Source: Candidatus Magasanikbacteria bacterium CG11_big_fil_rev_8_21_14_0_20_39_34
Lineage (GTDB): Bacteria; Patescibacteriota; Patescibacteriia; Magasanikbacterales; UBA922
Length of the DNA: 64,000 nucleotides
Reading direction: 5' to 3'
Assembly: GCA_002787355.1 (NCBI GenBank)
Contig: PCWN01000007.1
Coordinates: forward strand, 248,996 to 312,995
How positions within the stretch are numbered: position 1 is the first letter of the stretch; each line of letters starts with the position of its first letter. Positions 4,969 through 53,040 of this stretch are shown here, piece after piece. A program made the translations under genes and the position numbers. The notes under the pieces are model-generated. The model made no database searches. It was not told the DNA's origin and saw only the letters and a list, made by a program, of their open reading frames with translations.

Positions 4969-7938
4969 TTAAAGTTCTCGATATTCACAAATTTCCTTGA
5001 AATCACAAAATTTACAGGTAAACTTATTGGGTTTTGCAGTAAAGTCTTTGGTATGTATACCATCGATGGTCTTTACTATCTTTGCCTGTAATTTTTCAAG
5101 GTCTTTATTTTCTCCTATAAAACTTGTCTTTACGTTATCATTTAGATAGTAAAAAGTCAACTTGGAGACCGGTCCAATGTGTCTATATTCAGGAAGACTT
5201 TCTGCAGCTATTTGGTAGATAAGCAGCTGCTCTTTATCCTCTGATGTTAGCTTTTCTTTCGTAGCACCCGTTTTATAATCAATAATCTCAATGGACTTAT
5301 CATCATGTTGATCAATCCTATCAATTCTTCCATGAAGAAGATAGTCCCCTACTTGAATCTTAAACCAACTTTCCAATCCCACGGGGACACTCCAATTCCC
5401 TTCTTGAGCTGCATAAAATGTTTGTAAAATTTCTTTTCCTTTTTCAAAGTAACTATCTTTTTGTGATGTACTTTTAAACCAATCATCTATCCAATTCCTT
5501 TTATACAGTGCAAGAAGTTCCTCCAAAGATGGAACTTGTACAGTGTTGCTATCGCGCGGAGGCTGAACAAACTCGGCAAAAAGTGAAACTTGTTTTGCAG
5601 AATTTTTTTCCTGAACCAGTTTATAAAAATCTTGAAGTGTTTTGTGCATGGTATTTCCAAAGCTAAAACTGGCACTTCCTTTCGTGGGAATTTTGAGTAT
5701 ATGTGCAAGTTTGTACTGATACGGACATGTTTCATAAGCCTTGATCTGAGAAAATGAAAATACTTTTGGAATATCATACACAACACCTTGCTTTTCCTGG
5801 GAGATATTTGTCTGTGTATCGGCAATAGAAAAAAGTGCTTCCATGTTCTTTTGAAGATTTTTTTCTTTGGCAATATCAATCCCTGACTCTCCAATAAAAC
5901 GAGAAATTTTTTTCTTTCTTTGTCCACCATAATCATCTGCACTACAGAGATACACACGTTCTTTCGCCCGTGTAAGTGCAACATACATAAGTCTTCTTTC
6001 TTCTTGATAGTGTATTTGGTGAGAAGAAATCTGTTCATGTATAAGCTCTTCTGGGACCTCAATGCCTTTTGATTGGGATCGTGAAGGAAAGCGCTCTTCT
6101 ACTGCGTCTAAAATAAAAACATATCTAAATTCCAAACCCTTGGCCGCATGAACCGTCATGATATTCACTGAATCCGGTGTGTCGGTTGGTTGATAGAGTT
6201 GACCTTCATCTCCAGCATCAAGGATATGTTCATAATTTTTCATAAAATGCTTAAGGTGCGGATCCGTGGTAGTTTGTTCATATTTTGTAAGAAGTTCAAA
6301 GAACTGCTTCAGTTGGTAAATTTGTCGAATGATTTCTGCATTTCCCTCTTCCTCTTTTTGTGTAAGATAAGAAAGATAACCGCTTTGCTCCAAAAATTGA
6401 TACAGTAATGTGGACGGCTTTTGTCCTCGTGCATTTTTCATTCCATCATGGATAATATTAACCACCTTATTACAGATATGAATTCCCTCCTGTGACACCC
6501 CAAACTCAGCAGCACGTTTGAGAAGAACATAGTAAGACAAACTTTTCTTTTTTGAAGCAAAAGTGATTTTTTGTATATCAGATTCTTTGAGTTCTAAAAA
6601 AGGAAGCCGAAGAAGTCGATACATGGCGCTATCTTCTTTATGCTGGTCTAACACACGAAAAAAATTAACACAATCAAGTACAAGCGGTTGGCGAAATAAA
6701 CCAGATGCTGCCAAAAATTCATAAGGAATTTTTGCCTTCTGTAACATATCAATATACGGCGTCGCATGACCATTTGCACGTACAAGAAGCGCAAAATCGT
6801 CCCATACAGCATCTTTATTATCCTGTTTTAAACGCAAAATTTCTTGTGCAACAGAAAAAATAAGATCCGTTTGGGTATCAAAATGAAAATGCTCTACGCT
6901 CTTTTGAGAGCTTTGTTTTTTTTGTGAGATAAGTTTTTTATCCAGCTGTAGTTTTACTTCCAAACGATCTGGATTATTATGCTGTACCAGTGTATGTGCG
7001 GCATCTAATATAGGTTGAGCAGAACGATAATTTTCTGAAAGTACAACTTCATGTGCCGTAGGAAAATCTTCTTTAAAACGCAAAATGTTGGAAACCGATG
7101 CCCCTCGGAACGCATAGATAGCTTGGTCATCATCCCCCACCACAGTAAGGTGTGCATGCTCTGAAAGACACTGGATGAGTCGGTATTGTGACCAATTGAC
7201 ATCTTGAAATTCATCCAAAAGTATATATTTAAATCTTTGTGAAAATTCTTTTTTTATCATTGGTCTTTCCTCCAATAACTTTACAGAGTAATAAATAAGA
7301 TCCGCAAAATCCATGCAAGCATTATCAAGTAACAGCTGATTGTAAACTTTGTACGCTTGTGCAATTTCCAGAAGTCTTTTCTTCTCATCTGCTTCATCCT
7401 CTTGAAACACCCGCTTATTTACATATTCTAGATACTCTTCCGGACTTATCATTTCATCTTTGCATTTTTGAAAATGAGAAATAAAATCATGAATATGTTT
7501 GGTTGGGTTCCCCAAAGGTTTGTAATATTCCAACGGAAACAAATCTAGGTTTTCTTGTACCAAGAGCCAGCATTCTGTTTGAGTCAGAAGTCGAAATTGT
7601 GTTGAAAGTCCAATATCAATACCAAAATTTTCTATAATTTTTTTGCAAAAATTATGAAAAGTAGATATTTGCATATCCAGATACCCAGTTTCCAGAAGAG
7701 CATCTACACGCTCCTCCATTTCAGAAGCCGCTTTTTCTGTAAATGTAATAGCCAAAATTTCCTCAGCCTTTCCCAGTTGGGACTTTATAATATGTGCAAT
7801 TTTTTCAGAAATTACCGTAGTTTTTCCTGTCCCAGCTCCGGCAATAATAAGAAGCGGATTATCAAAATAAAGAACCGCTTCTTTCTGTGCAGCATTGAGT
7901 TGTGTTTGTTTTTTATCCATTTTATTGCCCAAAAACAA
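4969..7938 (-). CDS. UvrD/PcrA-like superfamily 1 helicase fused to a C-terminal PD-(D/E)xK Cas4/AddB-like nuclease domain with a Cys cluster
   Basis: It has Walker A AGAGTGKTT, UvrD-type helicase motifs (VVGDDDQAIYAFRGA, LSENYRS), and a C-terminal ETCPYQYK ... CKFCDFKEICEY (C-x2-C-x5-C) region typical of Fe-S RecB-family nucleases. Total length is 989 aa. Confidence 0.8.
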   Translation of the reverse strand: MFLGNKMDKKQTQLNAAQKEAVLYFDNPLLIIAGAGTGKTTVISEKIAHIIKSQLGKAEEILAITFTEKAASEMEERVDALLETGYLDMQISTFHNFCKKIIENFGIDIGLSTQFRLLTQTECWLLVQENLDLFPLEYYKPLGNPTKHIHDFISHFQKCKDEMISPEEYLEYVNKRVFQEDEADEKKRLLEIAQAYKVYNQLLLDNACMDFADLIYYSVKLLEERPMIKKEFSQRFKYILLDEFQDVNWSQYRLIQCLSEHAHLTVVGDDDQAIYAFRGASVSNILRFKEDFPTAHEVVLSENYRSAQPILDAAHTLVQHNNPDRLEVKLQLDKKLISQKKQSSQKSVEHFHFDTQTDLIFSVAQEILRLKQDNKDAVWDDFALLVRANGHATPYIDMLQKAKIPYEFLAASGLFRQPLVLDCVNFFRVLDQHKEDSAMYRLLRLPFLELKESDIQKITFASKKKSLSYYVLLKRAAEFGVSQEGIHICNKVVNIIHDGMKNARGQKPSTLLYQFLEQSGYLSYLTQKEEEGNAEIIRQIYQLKQFFELLTKYEQTTTDPHLKHFMKNYEHILDAGDEGQLYQPTDTPDSVNIMTVHAAKGLEFRYVFILDAVEERFPSRSQSKGIEVPEELIHEQISSHQIHYQEERRLMYVALTRAKERVYLCSADDYGGQRKKKISRFIGESGIDIAKEKNLQKNMEALFSIADTQTNISQEKQGVVYDIPKVFSFSQIKAYETCPYQYKLAHILKIPTKGSASFSFGNTMHKTLQDFYKLVQEKNSAKQVSLFAEFVQPPRDSNTVQVPSLEELLALYKRNWIDDWFKSTSQKDSYFEKGKEILQTFYAAQEGNWSVPVGLESWFKIQVGDYLLHGRIDRIDQHDDKSIEIIDYKTGATKEKLTSEDKEQLLIYQIAAESLPEYRHIGPVSKLTFYYLNDNVKTSFIGENKDLEKLQAKIVKTIDGIHTKDFTAKPNKFTCKFCDFKEICEYREL

Positions 7939-42357: not shown

Positions 42358-42984
42358 CTATAATGGCAAAAAGAGTTTTTCTAATTCTTTTTGTTCCTTT
42401 TCAAAAAGCTTTGCCTTATATATTTTTTCTACAATTTCCTGTTCAGCAAAATTTTTATTATGAACTACAAGATCTGTAAATTCTTCAAAGGTAACCGGTT
42501 TCAAAGTAATTTTTTCTCCTCCATCCAGCTCGAGTTCTGCAACTTTTTTCAATCCCTTGGCAACAAAGGTGTAGACTACCCAATCTATTTTGGGAGTGGG
42601 GTGTTGTGCATCCCATAAAATAAATTCTTCTGCTTCATAACCACTTTCTTCCAAAAGTTCCCTTTTTGCCGCAGCTAAAATATCTTCTCCGTCATCCACT
42701 CTTCCACCGGTAGCACCTATGTAGGGCTCCTTACCTGGCTGTTCTTGTTCTGTCAGAAGAATACGCCCATCATCCAATACCGGAAAGACCACCACGGTAT
42801 CCGGACGTTTCAATTTTTCAAAAATGGCAGTTGTCCCATCAAAAAGTTTTTGTTCCCACTGATATACATCAAAAATAACACCATCAAATACTTTTTTGGC
42901 ATGATCTGGTATGGGTTGTACTGATTCAGGACGTAAAATATCCATATAAAAATTATTCATTAATAATATACCATTCTCCCTCAC
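42358..42984 (-). CDS. NUDIX hydrolase
   Basis: The Nudix box is GGRVDDGEDILAAAKRELLEESG. Confidence 0.75.
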   Translation of the reverse strand: MRENGILLMNNFYMDILRPESVQPIPDHAKKVFDGVIFDVYQWEQKLFDGTTAIFEKLKRPDTVVVFPVLDDGRILLTEQEQPGKEPYIGATGGRVDDGEDILAAAKRELLEESGYEAEEFILWDAQHPTPKIDWVVYTFVAKGLKKVAELELDGGEKITLKPVTFEEFTDLVVHNKNFAEQEIVEKIYKAKLFEKEQKELEKLFLPL

Positions 42985-43612
42985 TTATGACTTCCATATT
43001 CCCGTCCACTACCTTCAATGCAGACTGGTCATCCAGAACATACATGGTTTCTGTCATACCACTTGTCGCTTGAGCTATATTTTCTTTACGAAGTTTTGGA
43101 AACCAAACACTATTGAGATGAGGCACAACGTAATAATCAACCAAATGCAATCCTGGAATATCTTGCTTTTCATCCAAATCTTCTTCAAATAATTCTTGGG
43201 ACATACGCAGGGCCAAATCTTTTGATACGATAATACTTCCCGCACTCACTCCCACATATACTTTATTTTCAAGCAACTCCGGCAACATCTTGGTCAATCC
43301 GGATTTTTCTATCCATCGCATGAGATGATATGTATTTCCTCCTTCAAAATACAAAACATCTGCATTTTCTAATTTTGTTCTCAAAAGATCCGGTTCAAGA
43401 GCAGAAATGTCTGCAATGTCTATTTCTGCAAAACCACATTGTTGCAAAGAAACCAAATCCTCAATGAGCCATCCCTTATCCCCTACTTCTACATTTGAAG
43501 CGGTTGGGATAAATGCCAACTTTGTCTGTTCGGGTGTTTTGCCTACCAACTCAAATAAGGCTTTTTTGAGAGATTCATTGCGTATTCCCGCAGAAGTAAG
43601 AAGAAGTTTCAT
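42953..43612 (-). CDS. Peptidase S51 (dipeptidase E / cyanophycinase-like) family protein
   Basis: It has the class-I glutamine-amidotransferase-like fold with Ser nucleophile context VGVSAGSII. The N-terminus MKLLLTSAG is typical of PepE. Confidence 0.65.
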   Translation of the reverse strand: MKLLLTSAGIRNESLKKALFELVGKTPEQTKLAFIPTASNVEVGDKGWLIEDLVSLQQCGFAEIDIADISALEPDLLRTKLENADVLYFEGGNTYHLMRWIEKSGLTKMLPELLENKVYVGVSAGSIIVSKDLALRMSQELFEEDLDEKQDIPGLHLVDYYVVPHLNSVWFPKLRKENIAQATSGMTETMYVLDDQSALKVVDGNMEVISEGEWYIINE

Positions 43613-44588: not shown

Positions 44589-44960
44589 TTGTTTATGAAA
44601 ACATTTGTACAGTTTTTACTGAGTCTTCTTACAAGTATACTTCTTGGCATCTTGGGGCTTGGTGTCGGTGCCACTATTGGCGGTAATTTTGGTTTTCCTG
44701 CATTTGGGGGAAATGTTGGATATGAAGCCGGAGGTGTTTTTTTTGCAATTTTGGGAATTTCTTTGGGTAGCTTTTTCTTTTTTACATTACAAAATAAATT
44801 ACAATCAAAACAATTTCAATTCAAAATGCTCCTTGCAACTGCACTTACATTTTTTAAAGGAAACAAACCAAAAGCAAATTTAAAAATATGTTTCCAGTCT
44901 TTACTATTTATATTTCAAATTCTTGATCAACTTCTGCTAGATGTGTTTTTAACTCGTTAA
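44589..44960 (+). CDS. Small Gly-rich membrane protein
   Basis: A 123-aa protein with an N-terminal TM helix and Gly-rich hydrophobic segments (GVGATIGGNFGFPAFGGNVGYEAGG). Confidence 0.3.
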   Translation: MFMKTFVQFLLSLLTSILLGILGLGVGATIGGNFGFPAFGGNVGYEAGGVFFAILGISLGSFFFFTLQNKLQSKQFQFKMLLATALTFFKGNKPKANLKICFQSLLFIFQILDQLLLDVFLTR

Positions 44961-45876
44961 TCCCAGCGTCAAGAGCGTCAATATAAACTTCAAGTTCATA
45001 ATTTTCAAAATTGCCGGTTTGTTGAAATGTTTCAATTTTGCCAAATACATAATCTAATTTTTTGATTACTTCTTCTGTTCCTGGAATCCTCAAAGTTTCT
45101 CCAAATTTACCATAACGATTTTCCAAGCCTCTTTTTATCTTTTTATATAGCTTGTGATAATGATTAAAACTAGGCCACGCTAAAGGGTGACCCCATTGAA
45201 CGCCATAAATAAGATTTATCTGATACAGAGAAGGCTTATTTAACAAATCGGCTAATTTTTCATTTTTGAATTTTGTTTTGTGTTCTTTCTCTTCTTTTTG
45301 AATTTCTTTCATAACCATTTCTAATTCATTTCCGAGATGTTTATCTTGCTGACTGATGATATCCGCAAATTTTATGGTTTTACTTTCTGTTTTTGAGTGC
45401 ATCCACAACCTATATCTGAAACCGTCTTTGCTCAAAGATGAGCGGTCAATGGTACAAGAGGTAATTTCGTCATTTTCATACTTTGATTTATTACCTCTAT
45501 TTTCCTTTTTTACAGGGTGTCCGATGGTTTCATTTCTGACTTGTCTAATTTTAAAAAGTTCGGAATATTTATTGTCTGTACAATTAATTTTTTTGCTTAT
45601 ACCAAATAAAGATATTTTCAAAAAGTTTACAGCGTCTTGCTGGATAAAAAGAGCTTGTAAAAGTCCATAGGTTGCTAAATATGGGTTTTTTATAAATAAA
45701 TCGTTCGAATTTTTTTGGAAATCTTCTATTGCCAAGCAGGTATCTTCCAGCGTATCTAATGCCGCACAAAATTGATTCCAGTCGCCACTCTGTTTTCTGG
45801 AATAAACTTGAGTCTTTTTTATTGTGGAGCTATTAAAAAGCTCCCTGATTTGATGGGTGATTTCTGTAACGAGCAT
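44908..45876 (-). CDS. Hypothetical island protein with a HEPN-like Rx5H motif, a possible abortive-infection-type RNase
   Basis: A 322-aa protein. KIRQVRNETIGHP fits the HEPN Rx(4-6)H signature in a predicted helical N-terminal region. Its codon usage is more AT-rich than neighbouring housekeeping genes. No other recognisable domain was seen. Confidence 0.35.
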   Translation of the reverse strand: MLVTEITHQIRELFNSSTIKKTQVYSRKQSGDWNQFCAALDTLEDTCLAIEDFQKNSNDLFIKNPYLATYGLLQALFIQQDAVNFLKISLFGISKKINCTDNKYSELFKIRQVRNETIGHPVKKENRGNKSKYENDEITSCTIDRSSLSKDGFRYRLWMHSKTESKTIKFADIISQQDKHLGNELEMVMKEIQKEEKEHKTKFKNEKLADLLNKPSLYQINLIYGVQWGHPLAWPSFNHYHKLYKKIKRGLENRYGKFGETLRIPGTEEVIKKLDYVFGKIETFQQTGNFENYELEVYIDALDAGINELKTHLAEVDQEFEI

Positions 45877-45923
45877 ATCTTATAAATAAAAAGGAAAGAA
45901 ATTTTTGGTTTTCTGCCGCCGCT

Positions 45924-46058
45924 TCACTCCTCCAAAAAGGCTAATAAGTATAGTTTAACATTTTTGCAGAGTTTACGCCCGCCTTTTCTCCGTCGTTTGC
46001 GTCGGCGCGAGGCGCGACGGTAACTCGGAAGTCCACTCACGCTTCGCAAGCAAATCAT
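45924..46058 (-). CDS. Tiny (44 codon) arginine/lysine-rich ORF in a GC-rich spacer; it may be a structured non-coding element instead
   Basis: It translates as MICLRSVSGLPSYRRASRRRKRRRKGGRKLCKNVKLYLLAFLEE. The ATG is 9 nt downstream of, and in frame with, the TAA stop of the NDT-like gene. The region is locally GC-rich (CGN codons or a GC hairpin CGTCGGCGCGAGGCGCGACG). It is below the ORF-track size cut-off. Confidence 0.2.
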   Translation of the reverse strand: MICLRSVSGLPSYRRASRRRKRRRKGGRKLCKNVKLYLLAFLEE

Positions 46059-46067
46059 ATTTTGTTC

Positions 46068-46436
46068 TTACATTTGATTCAGAATTTGTTCAATTCCAAA
46101 AATTAATTCTTTATTATTAGAATATTCAACAAAGTTCTTTGAAACTACTTTTAATGAACCTGATACTTTTGAACCTTTTTTGAAAATACATACTATTGGA
46201 ACTCCGTATGTGTCTGCCCAACCTAATTCAATTCCTAAACCAGTAGCTGGTTCAGAAACTTCTGCAATTAATAATTCTGCTTCATTTTTCAAATAGTCTT
46301 TGGAATTGAATGGTTCATCAGAAGTTTCATGAGGTAAAACAAAAGTATGTTCACCATTTAAGGAACTTTGTCTAATTGGTTCATATAATTCTTTTTTGAA
46401 GTCAAAACTTCTTGAATGTGCAACGTAAATCTTCAT
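46068..46436 (-). CDS. Nucleoside 2-deoxyribosyltransferase-like (NDT/SLOG-clade Rossmann-like) small protein
   Basis: A 122-aa protein. The N-terminus KIYVAHSRSFDF and the C-terminal ATGLGIELGWADTYGVPIV match the NDT-family pattern (K-I-Y-x-A... / D-x-G-T-x-x-E-x-G-x-A-x-x-x-G-K/V-P-V) with the catalytic Glu. It is a very AT-rich gene. Confidence 0.5.
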   Translation of the reverse strand: MKIYVAHSRSFDFKKELYEPIRQSSLNGEHTFVLPHETSDEPFNSKDYLKNEAELLIAEVSEPATGLGIELGWADTYGVPIVCIFKKGSKVSGSLKVVSKNFVEYSNNKELIFGIEQILNQM

Positions 46437-46575
46437 AAAGTAAAAAATTGATTGTTTATATATAAATCTGATGGTGCAAAACTTGATTACTCCTAATGTT
46501 CACGTATATCTGATGTTGCAACCGCAGCGAGCACTACCGCCCAAGCAACAGCAGGAGCGAGCCAGATATACGCTA

Positions 46576-47139
46576 TTACGAGTTGTAATTTCTAAAACTA
46601 TTCCTCATTCCAGCTGCATCATTTAATATTTCGTACTTATTCCCCACAATCCGAAAATGTCTAGAAAAATAATACTTCTTAGAAGAACTGTTTAGAGCCC
46701 AATAGATAATTTCTATTTTAGATGTACCTATTATATCTGTGGGTTTGGTGTTTGGTATTCTATAACTCTTTGAGTGATGTTTAAGACTTTGGTCTGGATA
46801 CAAAATCACACTTTCATCATTGGCTGATTTGCTTTTTTCACCATTGAATTCGGACATCCCGATAAATTGAATAGGGACTTTTCCCACGTTCTTCACAGAA
46901 TAAAAAAACTGTATAAAATCTGTCGTCTCACTCAAATTTTTTCCGTCACCGCTTACAATTAATTCAATATCACGCTCTATTGTTACATATGGGGTTGTAA
47001 ATAGTTCAAGTTGCTTCTCCGACACATTTGAAAGGACGTGCGTTTTATATGTATACCAAATCGTAATTATAACAAGAACTATTGTTGAAAGCGCTTGAAC
47101 AGCAGCCACGTTTTCGTTTAAAAATTTAATTAAATACAT
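46576..47139 (-). CDS. Hypothetical N-terminally membrane-anchored protein
   Basis: A 187-aa protein with one N-terminal TM helix (LSTIVLVIITIWYTY) and a beta-rich soluble part. No motif was recognised. Confidence 0.35.
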   Translation of the reverse strand: MYLIKFLNENVAAVQALSTIVLVIITIWYTYKTHVLSNVSEKQLELFTTPYVTIERDIELIVSGDGKNLSETTDFIQFFYSVKNVGKVPIQFIGMSEFNGEKSKSANDESVILYPDQSLKHHSKSYRIPNTKPTDIIGTSKIEIIYWALNSSSKKYYFSRHFRIVGNKYEILNDAAGMRNSFRNYNS

Positions 47140-47253
47140 AGTTTTAGAAATTATTTCAGCTGACGTCTATGAATAGTCGAAGTTTGAAAGTGCTAAAATG
47201 GGAGCCTTAGCGACCCACCACTGCCAAATTTGGGTGAGTGAGCGTTAAAAAAA

Positions 47254-47487
47254 TTATTTCAAAAATTTGTATTCAATAAATAATCCTATTAGTACAGGCA
47301 CAGTGCCAATAACAATAAGCCAAAACGTTTTAGGACGTTTTTCAATAAATTCATGCAGTATGCGACTTTTTATCATTTTTGTTCCTTGCCCATCAATCTT
47401 TGCACCTTGAATATCGCAATCTTCAAATGTGTTATCTTTTGCCTCTTTTCTGACATGAAGGGAGAATTTTTGATTATTTTTGGTCAT
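47254..47487 (-). CDS. Small tail-anchored membrane protein
   Basis: A 77-aa protein with a C-terminal TM helix (TFWLIVIGTVPVLIGLFIEY). Confidence 0.3.
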   Translation of the reverse strand: MTKNNQKFSLHVRKEAKDNTFEDCDIQGAKIDGQGTKMIKSRILHEFIEKRPKTFWLIVIGTVPVLIGLFIEYKFLK

Positions 47488-47548
47488 ATTTTTGAAATAA
47501 TTTTTACCGAGTGAATCGACTATACTGTATTAGCAGATGTAATGCCAC

Positions 47549-48244
47549 TTAGATTTTACTGCTTAGATGCTTAACAATTTTTTGGATTTCTTTTAGAGAC
47601 TTCTGCATAAGCGTCAATGCAGAAATATTGACACTATCAAATTTGAAATCAACCCACAAAATTCTTTTCACCTGAATTGAAGGATTTGGAAATGGCATAT
47701 TTGTTGTTTGGTCTACTTCAGATCCAAAAATTCTTGCTCCCTTTCCGAATTTTGCAAGTTTCGGATTATAAGACAGGCCGCCACCTTGAATGTGGTCAAC
47801 ATCCACACATTCTTGCTCTTCTCTTGTTTGTTCAATGAGGTCAACATGCTTGTTTCCTATGTTTACATCGTTAAATTGCTTCAACCACATTTGTTCTTGC
47901 CCCTGAAATGGCTGAATTGATAACAAGTATGAATAAAGATCGAGATTACCATCTTTAAGTCCGGGGAACCATTTATTTATACACTTTTCGAAACTTGTCA
48001 AATCGGGAAGGATCGGGAAATAAAAAATCTTGCTTCCTTGATTATTTACAACCGAACTTTCACGAATTTCATTTGCTAGATAGTCAAGTACTGAGCGAAT
48101 ATTTTCAAAAAGATTTTTTATTTCCACCTTCAATTCAGGTTTAATTTGCTTCTTATGCAGGGAATTATTGTATTCCTTTGTGATCTCCTCTAATTGTTGA
48201 GCAGCCTTCTTTAACAGTGCTTTTATACTTTTTGCTCTTTTCAT
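47549..48244 (-). CDS. Hypothetical island protein (231 aa)
   Basis: It is the first gene of the minus-strand island gene string and has no recognisable motif. A helical N-terminus is predicted. Confidence 0.35.
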   Translation of the reverse strand: MKRAKSIKALLKKAAQQLEEITKEYNNSLHKKQIKPELKVEIKNLFENIRSVLDYLANEIRESSVVNNQGSKIFYFPILPDLTSFEKCINKWFPGLKDGNLDLYSYLLSIQPFQGQEQMWLKQFNDVNIGNKHVDLIEQTREEQECVDVDHIQGGGLSYNPKLAKFGKGARIFGSEVDQTTNMPFPNPSIQVKRILWVDFKFDSVNISALTLMQKSLKEIQKIVKHLSSKI

Positions 48245-48332
48245 AATTTTTAGTTAAATGGCACCATTTCCGCTAACGTTTCTAAGTATGTAAAATTTTA
48301 CTGAAATAGTCTGGAAAATTGGGCGATGCCCC

Positions 48333-48361
48333 TTGACGAAGCCGATTAATTTTAATACAAT
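48333..48361 (+). promoter_or_regulatory. Near-consensus sigma70-type promoter (TTGACG-17 nt-TACAAT)
   Basis: TTGACG is at 48333-48338 and TACAAT at 48356-48361, with a 17-nt spacer. No protein-coding gene follows on this strand. Confidence 0.5.
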
Positions 48362-48367
48362 GAATGA

Positions 48368-48556
48368 GACCGCCTTACGTGGCGCCTGCTGTGTAACAGC
48401 CGAAAGGTGCGTGTACCAGTAGTTTCAGGCACGAGGAACTTAAAAATGCTGGGACCAGAATAGAACTTGACCTGCTATTTATAGCAGAGATAGTGATTCC
48501 CTAACCATGCGGTTTCTAGGACTGTCTCGAGATCCATTTGAGGCGGTTTTTTTTTG
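48368..48556 (+). ncRNA. Candidate sRNA of about 190 nt (identity unknown; 6S-like architecture is possible)
   Basis: It lies downstream of the promoter above. It is GC-rich relative to the genome. The 5' ACCGCCU pairs with the 3' AGGCGGU as a closing stem, followed immediately by U9. It has internal hairpins such as CUGCUAUUUAUAGCAG. No ORF is present. Confidence 0.4.
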
Positions 48557-48591
48557 CTAAAAACAAATTACTCCGACATTTTCCTAACTAG

Positions 48592-48678
48592 CGGAGAAGG
48601 CGGGATTCGAACCCGCGGTACGGTTTCCCGTACACATCCTTTCCAAGGATGCGCATTCGACCACTCTGCCACCTCTCC
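48592..48678 (-). tRNA. tRNA-Ser (anticodon GGA), class II with a long variable arm; CCA is not encoded
   Basis: It folds by hand into a cloverleaf. The acceptor stem is GGAGAGG/CTTCTCC, the anticodon stem-loop is CATCC-TTGGAAA-GGATG, the variable arm is TACGG-GAAA-CCGTA, and the T-arm is GCGGG-TTCGAAT-CCCGC. Confidence 0.9.
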
Positions 48679-49477: not shown

Positions 49478-50824
49478 TTAGTTACTTTTCCACTCTGAAA
49501 TAACTTCAAAAATTTGTTCTTCGTTGTCTACTATCTGGTAGAGCTCATCATCTTCATCAGAAACTGTATCTACATCATGCACCAATACCTTCTTGATAAA
49601 TTTGTGAAGTGGCAACCAAAATTTATGATCCACAAGAATAACCGGACGTTTCTTTATCTTACTTGTTTGCATCAATGTTAACACCTCAAAGAGTTGGTGC
49701 AAGGTACCAAACCCTCCAGGAAAAAATATAAAGGCATCAGAAGGTGCTGTCACAATAAGTTTTCTGGTAAACGGAAATTTGAAAATAATAGAATCTGTAA
49801 GGTAAGAATTTACTTCCTTGTGGCCAGCAACTTCCATACCAATTCCAATGGATCTTCCTCCCTCATGAAAAGCTCCTCGATTTACCGCCTCTGCAATTCC
49901 ATATTTTCCTCCTGTAATAACCGTATATCCATGTTTTACCGCCAACTTTCCAACTTTGAGTGCAGACTGATAGTATGGACTTTTCTTTGGAATACTTTTT
50001 GTTCCCAAAATAGTAACATCCTTATCCAGACCACTCACAAATTCAAATCCCTGAACTAACTCTGACATGATTCTAAAAACTCGCCAGTTCACATTTTCTA
50101 AACAGTGAAAGTTATCTGCAGAGAGATCACATGTCTGATTATGTGCGTCATCATGTCCTTTAATATATTTAAAAGCTTCTTGTGCACTGTCTACCACATG
50201 CCAGCTGTTTATTTGTTCTGCGGTCATAGACCCCGCTCCCTCAATGCAACATGATTTCAAAAACTTAATAAGTGGCTTCCAGTATGATGAACCAACGAGA
50301 ATAATTGGTGATTTATTCATCATCCCCAACTCCATAAGGTCTACAACTTCAAAAAACTCATCCATGGTTCCAAATCCTCCCGGAAAATACACAAAAGCAT
50401 GCGCAGGAGACGTAAGCATTACCTTTCTGGTGAAGAAGTAGTTAAATGAAGTAGATCGAGTTACATAAGGATTCAAGACTTGTTCAAAAGGAAGCTCAAT
50501 ATTTAATCCCACAGATTGGCCCTTCCCCTCAAATGCCCCTTTGTTTGCCGCTTCCATAATCCCCGGTCCCCCTCCGGTAATAGTAGTAAAATTATTTTCC
50601 GCTAAAATTTTTCCAATTTCATAGGCTACTTTGTAATAAGATTCATCTGGATGAAATCTGGCAGAACCTAAAATAGTCACTTCATTTTTTAATTCAGAAA
50701 GAAATTGATATCCCTCCACAAATTCCGCCATGATACGAAAAATTCTCCATGATTGACGGAAATCCCCTTTTTCACGCATGATATATCCAAACCTCCTTTT
50801 ATGGTTGTATGGTTTTTTCTTCAT
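49478..50824 (-). CDS. Tandem-duplicated LOG family protein (two TIGR00730-type Rossmann domains fused)
   Basis: It has two copies of the PGGxGTxxE motif (FPGGFGTMDEFFEV and FPGGFGTLHQLFEV), each preceded by a GGGPGIMEA / TGGKYGIAEA nucleotide-binding motif. Confidence 0.75.
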   Translation of the reverse strand: MKKKPYNHKRRFGYIMREKGDFRQSWRIFRIMAEFVEGYQFLSELKNEVTILGSARFHPDESYYKVAYEIGKILAENNFTTITGGGPGIMEAANKGAFEGKGQSVGLNIELPFEQVLNPYVTRSTSFNYFFTRKVMLTSPAHAFVYFPGGFGTMDEFFEVVDLMELGMMNKSPIILVGSSYWKPLIKFLKSCCIEGAGSMTAEQINSWHVVDSAQEAFKYIKGHDDAHNQTCDLSADNFHCLENVNWRVFRIMSELVQGFEFVSGLDKDVTILGTKSIPKKSPYYQSALKVGKLAVKHGYTVITGGKYGIAEAVNRGAFHEGGRSIGIGMEVAGHKEVNSYLTDSIIFKFPFTRKLIVTAPSDAFIFFPGGFGTLHQLFEVLTLMQTSKIKKRPVILVDHKFWLPLHKFIKKVLVHDVDTVSDEDDELYQIVDNEEQIFEVISEWKSN

Positions 50825-50842
50825 AAAAATGATTATGGTGAG

Positions 50843-51046
50843 TTATGTGGTAAACCAAGAACGAATGTCTTTGCAAGCAAAAGTTCTCTCTTCTCCTTTT
50901 TCCGTATCAAGTGCTCGCAAACACCACTGAGCTTCTCCATGCCATGGAGTCTCTGTAAAAATTATTTCTTTTGGAATAATGGTTCGTACCCTTGTTTCTC
51001 CCTGCCAATTGGTATACAAAATTTTTATTTCTTTTTCCTTCTCCAT
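50843..51046 (-). CDS. Small hypothetical protein (67 aa)
   Basis: The ORF is compact between LOG and gatA, with Trp/Glu-rich sequence ILYTNWQGETRVR...WHGEAQWCLRALDTEKGEERTF. The family was not recognised. Confidence 0.3.
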   Translation of the reverse strand: MEKEKEIKILYTNWQGETRVRTIIPKEIIFTETPWHGEAQWCLRALDTEKGEERTFACKDIRSWFTT

Positions 51047-51052
51047 AAATGA

Positions 51053-52474
51053 TTATTGGATCTGATGCCCCACCCTCAACAAAAGTTCTTCAGACATCCT
51101 TTTGCCCATGATCTGCAATCCAACCGGTAGACCCGCAGTAGTATTCCCAGCAGGAAGAGATATGCCAGGGATTCCAGCCACTGCCGCAGGACCTACAAAA
51201 ATATCTGCCAAATACATAGCCAGCGGATCACTTGATTTTTCTCCTAAATCAAATGCCGGAAATGGTGACGTTGGTGTTACCAAAACATCTACCTCTCTAA
51301 AAACGCGTTCAAAGTCTTGACTGATCAATGTACGCACTTTTTGAGCTTTTCGGTAATAGGCATCATAGTATCCAGCAGACAATGCATAGGTACCAATCAT
51401 AATGCGTCTTTTTACTTCTTCAGGAAATCCTTTTGCACGAGATTGTGCATATATGCCAAGAAGAGTATCTGCTTCTTCACGGACTCCATAGCGGATTCCA
51501 TCAAGCCGCCCCAAGTTTGAACTGTCTTCTGAAGGAACTAGAATATAATAGACCGGAACGGCATATTTGGTATAGGGAAGACTTACCTCCACCAACTCAC
51601 ATCCTAATTCTTTAAACTGTTGTATTTTTTTCTCAACCAATACTCTTGTTTCTTCATCCATTCCAGCCATTTCAAAATATTCTTTTGGAACTCCAACCCG
51701 TAAACCTGAAATGTCTTCTTCCAAATGTTCTCCATAATGTGGAACCGGAACATCTACCGTTGTTCCATCTTTTTCATCTTTTCCGGCCATTGCCTCAAGA
51801 ATGATTGCTATATCTTCTGAAGTTTTTGCAATGGGTCCTACCGTATCCAAAGAACTGGCCATAGGCATGATTCCATAGCGTGAATTTCTTCCATAGCTTG
51901 GCCGTAAACCAACCACTCCACACAAACTTGCCGGAAAACGAATAGATCCTCCAGTATCTTCCGCAATACCATATATACACATATGATCTGCAACGGATGC
52001 CGCAGAACCACCGGAAGACCCACCTGCTACTTTGGAGAGGTCATGTGGATTTTTTACCGGTCCATACATGGAGTTTTCGTTACTTGCACCATGCCCAAAG
52101 GCATCACAGTTTACCTTCCCAAGAATAACGCCACCCTGCTCTTGAATTTTTTTAATAACCGTAGCAGGATAGGGTGCAATATAATTATCCAAAATCTTTG
52201 CAGATCCTGTAGAACGCATATCTTCCACACAGATAGCATCTTTCACTGAATATGGAATACCTGTAAGCATTTTTTGTTGGCCGGACGCAATCATCTCATC
52301 TGCACGTTTTGCCTGTTCCAAAGCAACTTCTGAGGCAACGGTAATAAATGCATTGATGTCTTTATTCCTTTCCTCTATACGCTTCAAACAAGCCTGTGTT
52401 AACTCAACAGAAGAAAATTTCTTTTCCTTTAACCCCTCATAGGCTTGTTTTAAAGTAAGTTCATTCAAATTCAT
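51053..52474 (-). CDS. gatA: Glutamyl/aspartyl-tRNA amidotransferase subunit A
   Basis: The amidase signature GGSSGGSAASVA with Ser-cisSer-Lys triad context. Confidence 0.9.
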   Translation of the reverse strand: MNLNELTLKQAYEGLKEKKFSSVELTQACLKRIEERNKDINAFITVASEVALEQAKRADEMIASGQQKMLTGIPYSVKDAICVEDMRSTGSAKILDNYIAPYPATVIKKIQEQGGVILGKVNCDAFGHGASNENSMYGPVKNPHDLSKVAGGSSGGSAASVADHMCIYGIAEDTGGSIRFPASLCGVVGLRPSYGRNSRYGIMPMASSLDTVGPIAKTSEDIAIILEAMAGKDEKDGTTVDVPVPHYGEHLEEDISGLRVGVPKEYFEMAGMDEETRVLVEKKIQQFKELGCELVEVSLPYTKYAVPVYYILVPSEDSSNLGRLDGIRYGVREEADTLLGIYAQSRAKGFPEEVKRRIMIGTYALSAGYYDAYYRKAQKVRTLISQDFERVFREVDVLVTPTSPFPAFDLGEKSSDPLAMYLADIFVGPAAVAGIPGISLPAGNTTAGLPVGLQIMGKRMSEELLLRVGHQIQ

Positions 52475-52477
52475 ACT

Positions 52478-52771
52478 CTATTCAAAAACTTTTTTTACTT
52501 TGAGTAATGATCCAACCTTTTCTGGAAAAGCATTTATAATTTTTTGTTGAACCGCATCATTTGGCTCTCCCACGGTATCTTCTCGTGTCACATTCATAAG
52601 CCCGGTTACCTGACAGGTTTCTTCTACATCTTCGGTATCTACTTCATTTAATATTTCAATATAATCAAAAATTACCGAAAGTTGTTCGGCATAGATTTCT
52701 TTTTCTGAGTCAGAAAGCTCAAGTCGTGCTAAAAGAGCAATCTCCTCTATTTCATGCGGAGTTAATTTCAT
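52478..52771 (-). CDS. gatC: Glutamyl/aspartyl-tRNA amidotransferase subunit C
   Basis: A 97-aa protein directly upstream of gatA with a typical GatC N-terminus (EIEEIALLARLELSDSEKE). Confidence 0.8.
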   Translation of the reverse strand: MKLTPHEIEEIALLARLELSDSEKEIYAEQLSVIFDYIEILNEVDTEDVEETCQVTGLMNVTREDTVGEPNDAVQQKIINAFPEKVGSLLKVKKVFE

Positions 52772-52869
52772 AGTGAATTTAGTCCTATTTTAATACAATG
52801 TAGCCTTCTATGCAAGTTCTCTTCTTGCTCTGAGACACTAGACATTTCTTTTTTTCTATGCTTAAATGA

Positions 52870-53040
52870 AAGAGCTATTGCCCACCACGGCAAAGAGGGG
52901 TTTCCCTGATCGTCAGGGAGTCGGCAGTCCACCAAGTTGGGGCAACCGCGAGGTCTGTGTCCAATGCCGATAAGCGCTTTCTTCCTCGGTCAAAAGCGCT
53001 TACCCTCTTGACCCAACCCCAAAAAAAGGATAAGTATGTA
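52870..53040. ncRNA. GC-rich multi-hairpin structured element of unknown function; strand unresolved
   Basis: It has consecutive perfect hairpins: UUGCC-N7-GGCAA, CCCUGA-UCG-UCAGGG, and AAGCGCUUU-N11-AAAGCGCUU. Its GC content is well above the local background. Both strands carry only short overlapping ORFs. A weak hairpin plus T8 follows at 53043-53070. Confidence 0.3.

What the first reader, a model, noticed from the sequence alone, without database searches (positions are those of the whole stretch)
46068..46436. Small nucleoside-2-deoxyribosyltransferase-like (NDT/SLOG clade) protein next to membrane proteins
The 122-aa ORF keeps the two hallmark segments of the NDT fold. These are an N-terminal KIYVAHS strand and a C-terminal GLGIELGWADTYGVPIV segment containing the Glu that acts as nucleophile in bona fide deoxyribosyltransferases. 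A stand-alone minimal NDT-like domain encoded beside two small TM proteins suggests a nucleotide- or nucleoside-processing sensor/effector pair rather than salvage metabolism. A separate, clearly housekeeping SLOG-family gene (the tandem LOG at 49478..50824) lies about 3 kb away, so this one is an extra, divergent copy.
Basis: partly seen in the sequence, partly recalled or inferred. Interest (0 to 1): 0.6.

Follow-up and report, generated by a model that had tools for sequence, protein, structure and literature searches.

The report
DNPH1-like glycosidase on an integron cassette
The small ORF is a real, conserved enzyme of the nucleoside-deoxyribosyltransferase/DNPH1 fold. It is not paired with the membrane proteins beside it, because it is a mobile integron gene cassette sitting in a decayed cassette array of a Candidate Phyla Radiation bacterium.

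Summary
ORF 46068-46436 (minus strand, 122 aa) is real, conserved and under purifying selection. Its model (pLDDT 96) has an NDT-superfamily fold closest to DNPH1/Rcl nucleotide N-glycosidases. The Glu of GLGIELG and the N-terminal Tyr are (near-)invariant.

The interpretation does not hold. The flanking ORFs, including the two single-TM proteins, have no homolog in any of 91 loci that carry a family member. The gene shows no detectable relationship to the nearby tandem LOG gene.

The gene is an integron cassette. A significant attC site (46486-46586, E=1.3e-3 over 64 kb) abuts its 5' leader. In three other assemblies, 81-90% identical copies sit in different attC arrays, two of them next to integron-type tyrosine recombinases, and DNA homology starts exactly at the attC R' core. 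The window's array has no integrase and is partly decayed. It sits just after tRNA-Ser.

The family is uncharacterised. It is found in CPR bacteria, DPANN archaea and a few Bacillota. It has its own invariant residues (His7, Tyr18, His36, Trp73, Tyr105) and Ser/Thr where DNPH1 has its catalytic Asp. The most likely function is a (deoxy)nucleotide N-glycosidase; NUDIX neighbours and fusions fit that. The substrate is unknown.

The parts
46068..46436 (-). 122-aa NDT-superfamily (DNPH1-like) ORF. Predicted nucleophile Glu70 in G66-L-G-I-E-L-G-W73. Also Tyr4, His7, Tyr18, Pro35-His36-Glu37, Ser45, Glu59, Ser94, Tyr105.
46437..46497 (-). Cassette 5' leader of 61 nt, from the attC R' core to the ATG. 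It is 75-96% identical among the four cassette copies, which is more conserved than synonymous sites. It may carry a promoter or regulatory element (inferred).
46486..46586 (-). attC recombination site. R'' is GTAAT, L'' is GCGTATATCTG, L' is CAGATATACGT, R' is ATTAGG. The canonical AAC/GTT triplets have changed to AAT/ATT, a compensatory pair change. It marks the 5' boundary of the NDT-like cassette and overlaps the stop of the 187-aa ORF.
   Evidence: CM R1 scores 28.3 bits, E=1.3e-3 over 64 kb, the top hit of the window. The expected hairpin forms, z=-2.1. DNA homology with L004, L008 and L013 starts here.
45877..46067 (-). GC-rich spacer downstream of the ORF, where the cassette's own attC should be. 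No attC is detectable, so it is degenerate or replaced. Homology to the other cassette copies ends about 15 nt after the stop codon.
46576..47139 (-). 187-aa ORF with one N-terminal hydrophobic segment. A separate cassette with no family assignment. Not a conserved partner.
47153..47279 (-). Weak, decayed attC-like site. It has the CACCCAAAT loop motif shared with the long attCs of L004 and L008, and a terminal R' GACGTCAGCTGAAAT.
   Evidence: CM 11.8 bits, not significant alone. The R' 15-mer matches with 2 mismatches. Motif comparison.
47254..47487 (-). 77-aa ORF with one C-terminal hydrophobic segment. Unrelated cassette content.
47549..48244 (-). 231-aa ORF, first gene of the block. Its only hit is phrog_13652 (unknown function, E=3e-5).
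48266..48280 (-). Near-consensus R' core AACGTTAGCGGAAAT, one mismatch from the L004/L008 consensus. It lies just upstream of the first ORF and is the proximal boundary of the array.
   Evidence: two matches in the window, both in spacers of this block on this strand; 0.17 expected
48591..48678 (-). tRNA-Ser(gga). The variable block begins immediately 3' of it. The LigA-GatCA-LOG-Lgt-tRNA-Ser synteny is conserved in a distant Magasanikbacterium and breaks right after the tRNA.
44908..45876 (-). 322-aa ORF of a CPR-restricted orphan family. Elsewhere it sits in unrelated contexts with no attC and no NDT-like gene. It is the distal neighbour, and whether it belongs to the array is uncertain.

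Best explanation
The ORF encodes a minimal, stand-alone member of an uncharacterised clade of the nucleoside 2-deoxyribosyltransferase / DNPH1 superfamily. The clade is spread through CPR bacteria and DPANN archaea, with a few Bacillota. In this genome (Candidatus Magasanikbacteria) the gene is an integron gene cassette in a short, integrase-less, partly decayed cassette array just downstream of tRNA-Ser, so its neighbours are unrelated cargo. Proposed mechanism, inferred by analogy with DNPH1: a retaining N-glycosidase. Glu70 attacks C1' of a (2'-deoxy)nucleoside 5'-monophosphate to form a covalent sugar-phosphate-enzyme ester. Tyr4 positions the nucleophile and favours deoxyribose. The invariant His36, with Glu37 (Glu in 68 and Asp in 6 of 85 sequences), sits on the loop after strand 2 and plays the leaving-group and water-activating roles of DNPH1 His56 and Glu55. 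Ser94 contacts the 5'-phosphate. The result is removal of a (possibly non-canonical) nucleotide from the pool, releasing the base and deoxyribose-5-phosphate. Shown: the ORF, its conservation, the fold, conservation of the nucleophile motif, the attC site, cassette mobility, and the lack of conserved partners. Inferred: the chemistry, nucleotide rather than nucleoside as substrate, the residue roles, and dimerisation.
For: Fold and family: PDB phmmer and hmmsearch give best hits to Rcl/DNPH1 (E 1e-5 to 1e-6), aligning AEVSEPATGLGIELG with AEVTQPSLGVGYELG. The AF2 model has pLDDT 96. Foldseek top hits are DNPH1, BcmB and MilB, with a true NDT entry lower. Conservation in 85 species-level sequences: Glu70, His7, Tyr18, Pro35, His36, Trp73 and Tyr105 are invariant; Tyr4 82/85, Glu59 82/85, Ser94 78/85. 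With the offset of 34 fixed by the aligned block, Ser94 falls on DNPH1 Ser128, the phosphate ligand from the partner chain, and Tyr4 matches Tyr24, whose Tyr/Phe state tracks deoxyribose versus ribose preference (PMC10603095). Nucleotide link: NUDIX is the top recurrent neighbour (8 loci), and two independent NUDIX fusions occur among the representatives. Cassette status: a covariance model built from 12 attC sites (pairing 77% against 25-40% when slid) finds 46486-46586(-) at E=1.3e-3, the top hit in 64 kb. Copies 81-90% identical lie in other arrays (L004, L008, L013), and DNA homology begins at the R' core. L004 and L008 have divergent recombinases scoring 217-233 bits on TIGR02249 (integron integrase) and 215-242 bits on NF040815. 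attC hits on the gene's strand occur in 10 family loci, and the cassette-borne copies fall in at least 4 clades. The R' 15-mer occurs twice in the window, both times in spacers of this block. Purifying selection: dN/dS 0.09-0.23.
Against: No activity data exist. The Pfam score is below the gathering cut-off. The DNPH1 general-acid Asp80 aligns to Ser/Thr45, never Asp. The nearby acidic residue 47 is D or E in only 60 of 85. DNPH1's Gly-rich phosphate loop GSIRGG is HSRSFDF here. The second phosphate Ser (DNPH1 S98) is Ala in the window protein and Ser in only 42 of 85. The substrate could therefore differ from a dNMP. The window has only one statistically significant attC. The gene's own 3' attC is not detectable and the window has no integrase. 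The surviving attC has AAT/ATT instead of AAC/GTT, so the cassette is probably no longer mobile here. The NUDIX neighbours may reflect one or two conserved syntenies in one archaeal clade rather than many independent events.
Confidence: 0.55

Rival explanations
1. It is a true nucleoside 2'-deoxyribosyltransferase (or nucleoside hydrolase) that swaps or releases bases on deoxynucleosides, as salvage for a nucleotide-auxotrophic symbiont.
For: The GLGIELGWA motif also resembles the Lactobacillus NDT nucleophile motif (recalled from memory, not tested). Some sources annotate family members as 'nucleoside 2-deoxyribosyltransferase'. The family is concentrated in CPR and DPANN organisms, which depend on scavenging. 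The DNPH1 phosphate loop and the S98 equivalent are not conserved.
Against: Sequence and structure searches rank DNPH1, BcmB and MilB (nucleotide N-glycosidases) above NDTs: PDB E=1e-6 against 0.18 for 7m5h. Ser94 is conserved at the position of DNPH1 Ser128. NUDIX fusions and neighbours point to phosphorylated substrates. At 122 aa the protein is about 35-45 residues shorter than the classical NDTs as I recall them (about 157-167 aa), which use C-terminal residues from the partner chain (memory, not tested).
Confidence: 0.2
2. The cassette-borne copies are anti-phage effectors. They would hydrolyse phage-specific modified nucleotides (for example hydroxymethyl-dUMP or -dCMP), or deplete nucleotides during infection. 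This would be a nucleotide-pool counterpart of the integron-encoded DNA glycosylases.
For: The gene is carried on integron cassettes in at least 4 clades. Integron cassettes are enriched in compact single-domain defence enzymes, including glycosylases against modified phage DNA (bioRxiv 10.1101/2025.10.29.685425; titles). The closest characterised relatives, DNPH1 and MilB, are specific for hydroxymethyl pyrimidine nucleotides (PMC10603095).
Against: No PADLOC hit. Most family members are in ordinary chromosomal contexts next to housekeeping genes. There is no phage-related neighbour signal. Nothing here speaks to substrate specificity.
Confidence: 0.12
3. One reading: an NDT/SLOG-like nucleotide sensor or effector working together with the two adjacent small membrane proteins.
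For: Physical adjacency and shared strand in this one genome, stable across 24 contigs of the same population.
Against: The TM proteins have no homolog in any of 91 family loci. attC sites or remnants separate the genes. The same cassette has entirely different neighbours in L004, L008 and L013. No defence-system model hits any of them.
Confidence: 0.03
4. It is a non-catalytic ligand-binding domain, a nucleotide or nucleoside sensor that has kept the fold but lost the canonical acid/base residue.
For: Ser/Thr sits at the aligned position of the catalytic Asp.
Against: The nucleophile Glu and the surrounding GxGIELGW motif are invariant, as are two His and two Tyr, across 85 diverse sequences. 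That pattern is typical of an active site. The protein is stand-alone with no output domain. In DNPH1 itself a second residue (Glu55), not Asp80, activates the water.
Confidence: 0.05

Closest known systems
DNPH1 / Rcl (2'-deoxynucleoside 5'-phosphate N-hydrolase; PDB 4FYH, 8OS9, 9IA6)
   Same: Best sequence and fold match. Same strand order. Tyr after strand 1. AEV-x-x-P-x-x-G-x-G-x-E-L-G nucleophile block. A conserved Ser at the position of the partner-chain phosphate ligand Ser128. A His/Glu pair on the loop after strand 2.
   Different: 122 aa against 174 aa. The segment between strand 2 and the next helix is much shorter, so by sequence length there is no room for DNPH1's shielding loop. 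Asp80 aligns to Ser/Thr45. GSIRGG is replaced by HSRSFDF, with His7 invariant. Arg after ELG is replaced by invariant Trp73. There are extra invariant residues Tyr18 and Tyr105. Identity is only about 20-25%.
MilB / BcmB / BlsM (CMP and hydroxymethyl-CMP N-glycosidases of nucleoside-antibiotic pathways; PDB 4OHR, 4JEN, 5VTO)
   Same: Same fold and nucleophile Glu; among the top Foldseek and hmmsearch hits.
   Different: MilB has Phe where this family has Tyr, which correlates with ribose rather than deoxyribose substrates. These enzymes sit in biosynthetic clusters. Identity is 12-21%.
Type I/II nucleoside 2'-deoxyribosyltransferases (PF05014; e.g. PDB 7M5H)
   Same: Same superfamily and the same Glu nucleophile motif.
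   Different: Weaker matches: Pfam 14 bits against a 28.8 cut-off, PDB E=0.18. The classical enzymes are longer and act on nucleosides.
Integron gene cassettes / CALIN arrays (attC-bounded promoterless genes)
   Same: The R''-L''...L'-R' imperfect palindromes show covariation. Arrays are same-strand and read away from a divergent tyrosine recombinase in L004 and L008. The cassette homology breakpoint lies at the R' core.
   Different: In the window there is no integrase, only one significant attC, and the AAC/GTT triplets are mutated. The L004/L008 recombinases are short (270-279 aa), score below the TIGR02249 cut-off, and match it in two stretches, so they look closer to XerA-type. The cassette carries a conserved 61-nt leader.
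LOG / SLOG (PF03641), the neighbouring tandem gene at 49478-50824
   Same: A Rossmann-like nucleotide-binding fold in the broad sense.
   Different: No detectable profile similarity (hhalign probability 0.5%). The NDT-like family profile does not match any LOG domain of that protein. The LOG gene is part of a conserved housekeeping synteny.
Integron-encoded antiviral DNA glycosylases (Dag families; bioRxiv 10.1101/2025.10.29.685425)
   Same: Compact single-domain enzymes that cleave N-glycosidic bonds and are carried as integron cassettes.
   Different: Different folds (HhH, UDG). They act on DNA, not free nucleotides. They were shown in Vibrio, not CPR. No defence evidence exists here.

Membership tests
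NDT superfamily (PF05014-type fold) | Flavodoxin-like alpha/beta fold with five parallel strands | tested here: met
   AF2 pLDDT 96.1 with five strands and helices in the expected order. Foldseek TM 0.7-0.78 to DNPH1, BcmB and MilB.
NDT superfamily (PF05014-type fold) | Nucleophile Glu in the G-x-G-x-E-L-G motif at the start of the helix after strand 3 | tested here: met
   Glu70 is invariant in 85/85 and aligns to the rat Rcl and human DNPH1 nucleophile.
NDT superfamily (PF05014-type fold) | Passes the Pfam PF05014 gathering threshold | tested here: not met
   14.1 bits against 28.8. Only a minority of homologs carry a precomputed PF05014 hit.
DNPH1/Rcl | Catalytic triad Tyr24 - Asp80 - Glu104 | tested here: not met
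   Tyr4 (82/85) and Glu70 (85/85) are present. By hmmsearch and hhalign, Asp80 aligns to position 45, which is Ser 57 and Thr 23 of 85 and never Asp. This is alignment-based; no structural superposition was possible.
DNPH1/Rcl | Glu55-His56 on the helical element after strand 2 (water activation, leaving-group contact) | tested here: inconclusive
   The invariant Pro35-His36, followed by Glu37 (68/85), occupies the same loop but in reversed order. The spatial equivalence was not checked.
DNPH1/Rcl | 5'-phosphate ligands Ser98 and Ser128' plus the GSIRGG loop | tested here: inconclusive
   Ser94 (78/85) falls on Ser128 by the fixed offset. Position 64 is Ala in the window protein and Ser in 42/85. 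The loop is HSRSFDF, not Gly-rich.
DNPH1/Rcl | Hydrolysis of dNMP or hmdUMP; homodimer | not testable with these tools
   Needs an enzyme assay and a multimer model or crystal structure.
LOG / SLOG (PF03641) | Profile similarity to LOG domains | tested here: not met
   No PF03641 hit at E<=1. hhalign against the window's LOG protein gives probability 0.5%.
Integron gene cassette | Bounded 5' by the R' core of an attC site, same orientation as the array | tested here: met
   attC 46486-46586(-) scores 28.3 bits, E=1.3e-3. Homology with three other cassette copies starts at the R' core.
Integron gene cassette | Own attC site at the 3' end of the cassette | tested here: not met
   Nothing was detected in 45877-46067. 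It is met in the orthologous cassettes: L004 6411-6506, L008 6432-6539, L013 1386-1478.
Integron gene cassette | Integron integrase adjacent to the array | tested here: not met
   No tyrosine recombinase in the 64-kb window (tblastn). Present in L004 and L008. The window's array is therefore CALIN-like at best.
Known anti-phage defence systems (PADLOC-DB) | Match to a defence-protein model | tested here: not met
   No hit for the NDT-like protein. Its neighbours give only chance-level hits.
tRNA-targeting integrative island | Direct repeat of the tRNA 3' end at the distal boundary, plus an integrase | tested here: not met
   The 23-nt tRNA-Ser 3' end occurs only once in the window at up to 3 mismatches. 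No integrase.

The most novel reading that the evidence does not exclude
The cassette-borne members of this family are a new class of integron-carried antiviral or nucleotide-pool-policing enzymes in CPR bacteria. They would be minimal DNPH1-like N-glycosidases with a His/His/Tyr/Trp active site lacking the canonical Asp. They would destroy phage-type modified (deoxy)nucleotides before these can be polymerised. This would act on the nucleotide pool, where the recently described integron-encoded DNA glycosylases act on DNA.
Probability: 0.12. Interest if true: 0.75.

Novelty: new variant of a known kind. Interest (0 to 1): 0.4.

Why it matters
As found, the result is modest but useful in three ways. 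First, it removes a false lead: adjacency to membrane proteins inside an integron array says nothing about function. Second, it defines an uncharacterised, well-conserved clade of the NDT/DNPH1 superfamily with its own invariant residues. The clade is concentrated in CPR and DPANN organisms, which must scavenge nucleotides, so its substrate would say something about how these symbionts process or police their nucleotide pools. Third, it documents clear attC-type cassette arrays with short integron/XerA-like recombinases in CPR genomes, with one gene family caught in both chromosomal and cassette states. That is good material for studying how cassettes arise. My full-text searches found no study dedicated to integrons in CPR, and none linking NDT-like proteins to integron cassettes.

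Tried and rejected
- PADLOC, NCBIfam and PHROGs scans of the ORF and its neighbours gave nothing usable.
- An Rfam scan of the window found only the tRNA.
- The BFVD viral fold search gave only remote NDT-like and TIR-like matches. The IMG/VR scan found a single family member in 2.9 million contigs, so the family is not typically phage-borne.
- The sister-genome approach through Lgt failed. The nearest relative is 76% identical on a 2.5-kb contig that ends just past Lgt. Only distant synteny (L097) could be used.
- The tRNA-island hypothesis was rejected: no att repeat and no integrase.
- Simple regex searches for the textbook RYYYAAC/GTTRRRY cores were uninformative, because these attCs use a GCTAAC/GTTAGC variant. 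A covariance model replaced them.
- Fusion partners were mostly uninformative apart from NUDIX twice and Peptidase_S51 once. The PQ-loop case may be a gene-calling artefact.
- The promoter scan found no consensus sigma-70 site in the conserved leader.
- PDB sequence searches for the 322-aa and 231-aa neighbours found nothing meaningful.

Full report
OBSERVATION. The ORF exists as described, on the minus strand, at 46068..46436 (122 aa). KIYVAHS is residues 2-8 and GLGIELGWADTYGVPIV is residues 66-82. It is a real gene. The 5.8-billion-protein set holds 450 homologs, nearly all 118-128 aa, and the representative library holds 1178 clusters at E<=1e-3, 155 of them at E<=1e-30. Among close copies dN/dS is 0.09-0.23. 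The exact protein is annotated as a hypothetical protein of a Candidatus Magasanikbacteria MAG. It recurs on 24 contigs, and the four places read in detail (seven more were judged similar) show the same local gene order.

FOLD AND FAMILY. Pfam alone is unconvincing: PF05014 at E=0.051, 14.1 bits against a cut-off of 28.8. PADLOC, NCBIfam and PHROGs give nothing. PDB sequence searches hit Rcl/DNPH1 at E=1e-5 with the single sequence and 1e-6 with the family profile. They align AEVSEPATGLGIELG to AEVTQPSLGVGYELG, so Glu70 falls on the DNPH1 nucleophile. An AlphaFold2 model built from a 27-sequence alignment is very confident (pLDDT 96.1, pTM 0.89). By Foldseek it is closest to DNPH1/Rcl, then to the CMP N-glycosidases BcmB and MilB, with a true NDT entry lower.

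CONTEXT: THE NEIGHBOURS ARE UNRELATED CASSETTES. The block at 44.9-48.25 kb has low-GC gene bodies and GC-richer spacers. Two close homologs sit in same-strand arrays of small unrelated genes that read away from a divergent tyrosine recombinase: L004 (85% identity) and L008 (89%). Their spacers carry unmistakable attC-type sites of the form CAGCTAAC - imperfect palindrome - GTTAGCTG(AAAT). Twelve such sites align with paired R''/R' and L''/L' arms. Pairing is 77% against 25-40% when the partners are slid, and the covariation score is 0.31 against 0.05-0.11, with 0 of 500 shuffles reaching it. The recombinases score 217-233 bits on the integron-integrase model TIGR02249 (below its 265 cut-off, matched in two stretches) and 215-242 bits on NF040815, 'XerA / integron integrase'.

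A covariance model of the attC sites finds 46486-46586(-) as the top hit of the whole 64-kb window (28.3 bits, E=1.3e-3). This site lies directly upstream of the NDT-like ORF and folds into the expected hairpin (z=-2.1). A weak hit at 47153-47279(-) carries the CACCCAAAT loop motif and a terminal GACGTCAGCTGAAAT. The R' 15-mer AACGTTAGCTGAAAT occurs twice in the window at up to 2 mismatches, both times on the minus strand in spacers of this block (0.17 expected). DNA alignment of the window copy with L004, L008 and L013 shows homology starting exactly at the R' core. It runs through a 61-nt leader and the ORF and ends about 15 nt after the stop.

attC hits on the gene's strand occur in 10 family loci, and the cassette-borne copies fall in at least four clades of the family tree. 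An 85%-identical copy (L001) is an ordinary chromosomal gene between FolD and a T2SS ATPase, with no attC and a different upstream region. In the window the gene's own 3' attC is undetectable and there is no recombinase. The surviving attC has AAT/ATT in place of the AAC/GTT triplets. The array is therefore a decayed, CALIN-like remnant. It starts right after tRNA-Ser(gga). The upstream LigA-GatCA-LOG-Lgt-tRNA-Ser synteny is conserved in a distant Magasanikbacterium and breaks at the tRNA. A tRNA-island origin is not supported, because the tRNA 3' end is not repeated.

TESTING THE 'PARTNER' IDEA. None of the window's neighbouring ORFs has a tblastn hit in any of 91 loci that encode a family member. 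Clustering of the three genes on either side across about 85 loci gives no cluster present in more than 8 loci. The 322-aa neighbour belongs to a CPR-restricted orphan family. Its relatives sit in unrelated contexts with no NDT-like gene and no attC. The NDT-like family has no detectable similarity to the tandem LOG gene (hhalign probability 0.5%), and that LOG gene is part of the conserved housekeeping synteny. The sensor/effector reading and the 'divergent LOG copy' reading are both rejected.

FUNCTIONAL CLUES. The only suggestive recurring association is with NUDIX hydrolases. They are the largest neighbour cluster (8 loci), and there are two independent NDT-like plus NUDIX fusion proteins. 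Single loci show ThyX, dUTPase and Fpg (L006) or FolD (L001) nearby. One fusion is to Peptidase_S51. The window itself has NUDIX and S51 genes about 2.5 kb away, outside the array. The taxonomic spread covers many Patescibacteria lineages, Woese-, Nano- and Nanohaloarchaeota, and a few Bacillota. This fits a role in handling scavenged nucleotides. The family is nearly absent from viral contigs.

MOST LIKELY MECHANISM (inferred). The enzyme is a retaining N-glycosidase acting on a (2'-deoxy)nucleoside 5'-monophosphate. Glu70 forms the covalent intermediate. Tyr4 orients it and favours deoxyribose. His36 and Glu37 handle the leaving group and the water. Ser94 from a partner subunit holds the phosphate. 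I put about 0.95 on NDT-superfamily membership, about 0.85 on cassette status, and about 0.45 on dNMP N-hydrolase chemistry specifically.

NOVELTY AND VERDICT. The protein is a divergent, uncharacterised clade of a known superfamily, with a changed catalytic constellation and a minimal size. That makes it a new variant of a known kind, not a new kind. It is mildly interesting in itself, because my literature searches found no study dedicated to integrons in CPR and none on NDT-like cassettes. Interest is 0.4.

Noticed in passing
window 46451-46464 and 46053-46066; L008 about 5905-5920 and 6370-6385; L004 and L013 equivalents: A 13-14 nt inverted repeat brackets the NDT-like ORF in the cassette copies. 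TCAAGTTTTGCCCC lies in the leader and GGGGCAAAACTTGA lies right after the stop codon. It is perfect in L008, near-perfect in L004 and L013, and degraded in the window. It is neither part of the attC nor an ordinary terminator. Its purpose is unknown; it could be a long-range mRNA stem or a relic of how the cassette was formed.
   Followed up: partly
window 46437-46497 (-): The 61-nt leader between the attC R' core and the ATG is 75-96% identical among cassette copies, more conserved than synonymous sites in the ORF (56-79% identical). Integron cassettes are usually promoterless, so this may be a cassette-borne promoter or regulatory element. The consensus sigma-70 scan found nothing there.
   Followed up: partly
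L004 1456-2268(-), L008 3063-3902(-): The recombinases next to the CPR cassette arrays are short (270-279 aa). They match the integron-integrase model in two stretches below its cut-off and match the archaeal XerA/integron-integrase model about equally well. They may lack the extra domain that I recall as typical of bacterial IntI; that domain was not checked here.
   Followed up: partly
window 47488-47548 and 47153-47180 (-): The short spacer after the 231-aa ORF has an R''/L''-like start (ACATCTGCTAATACAGTATAGTCGA) but no R'. The complementary 8-mer (TCGACTAT) and an R' (GTCAGCTGAAAT) appear only after the 77-aa ORF. The 77-aa ORF may therefore lie inside a disrupted or very long attC, but this could be chance.
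   Followed up: no
window 48245-48590: A 345-nt GC-richer non-coding stretch lies between tRNA-Ser and the first ORF of the block, with no Rfam hit. The sequence right after the tRNA (TAGTTAGGAAAATGTCG) resembles L008 TAGTTAGCCAAAATGTCG, which is part of a small palindrome beside that locus's integrase. This may be a remnant of an attI-like region.
   Followed up: no
window 44908-45876 (-): The 322-aa ORF belongs to a small CPR-restricted orphan family (76 hits, no Pfam or PDB match). It contains RNETIGH, which fits the Rx4-6H pattern of HEPN nucleases. This is untested.
   Followed up: partly
window 42358-42984 (NUDIX) and 42953-43612 (Peptidase_S51), minus strand: Both domain types occur fused to members of the NDT-like family elsewhere (NUDIX in P0247 and P0206; S51 in P0201). 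In this genome they lie about 2.5 kb from the NDT-like gene but outside the cassette block. This may be coincidence or a weak functional link.
   Followed up: partly
window 49478-53000; L097 2842-8833: The gene order LigA-GatC-GatA-(67 aa)-tandem LOG-Lgt-tRNA-Ser(gga) is conserved between this genome and a Magasanikbacterium whose Lgt is only 55% identical. Synteny ends exactly at the tRNA.
   Followed up: yes
L034-type entries (e.g. L015, L023, L026, L030, L042): Several species-representative MAGs that carry family members are titled 'uncultured Gammaproteobacteria', 'Pseudomonadales' or 'Methanosarcinales', yet their proteins cluster among CPR and DPANN sequences. The record titles may be mislabelled.
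   Followed up: no
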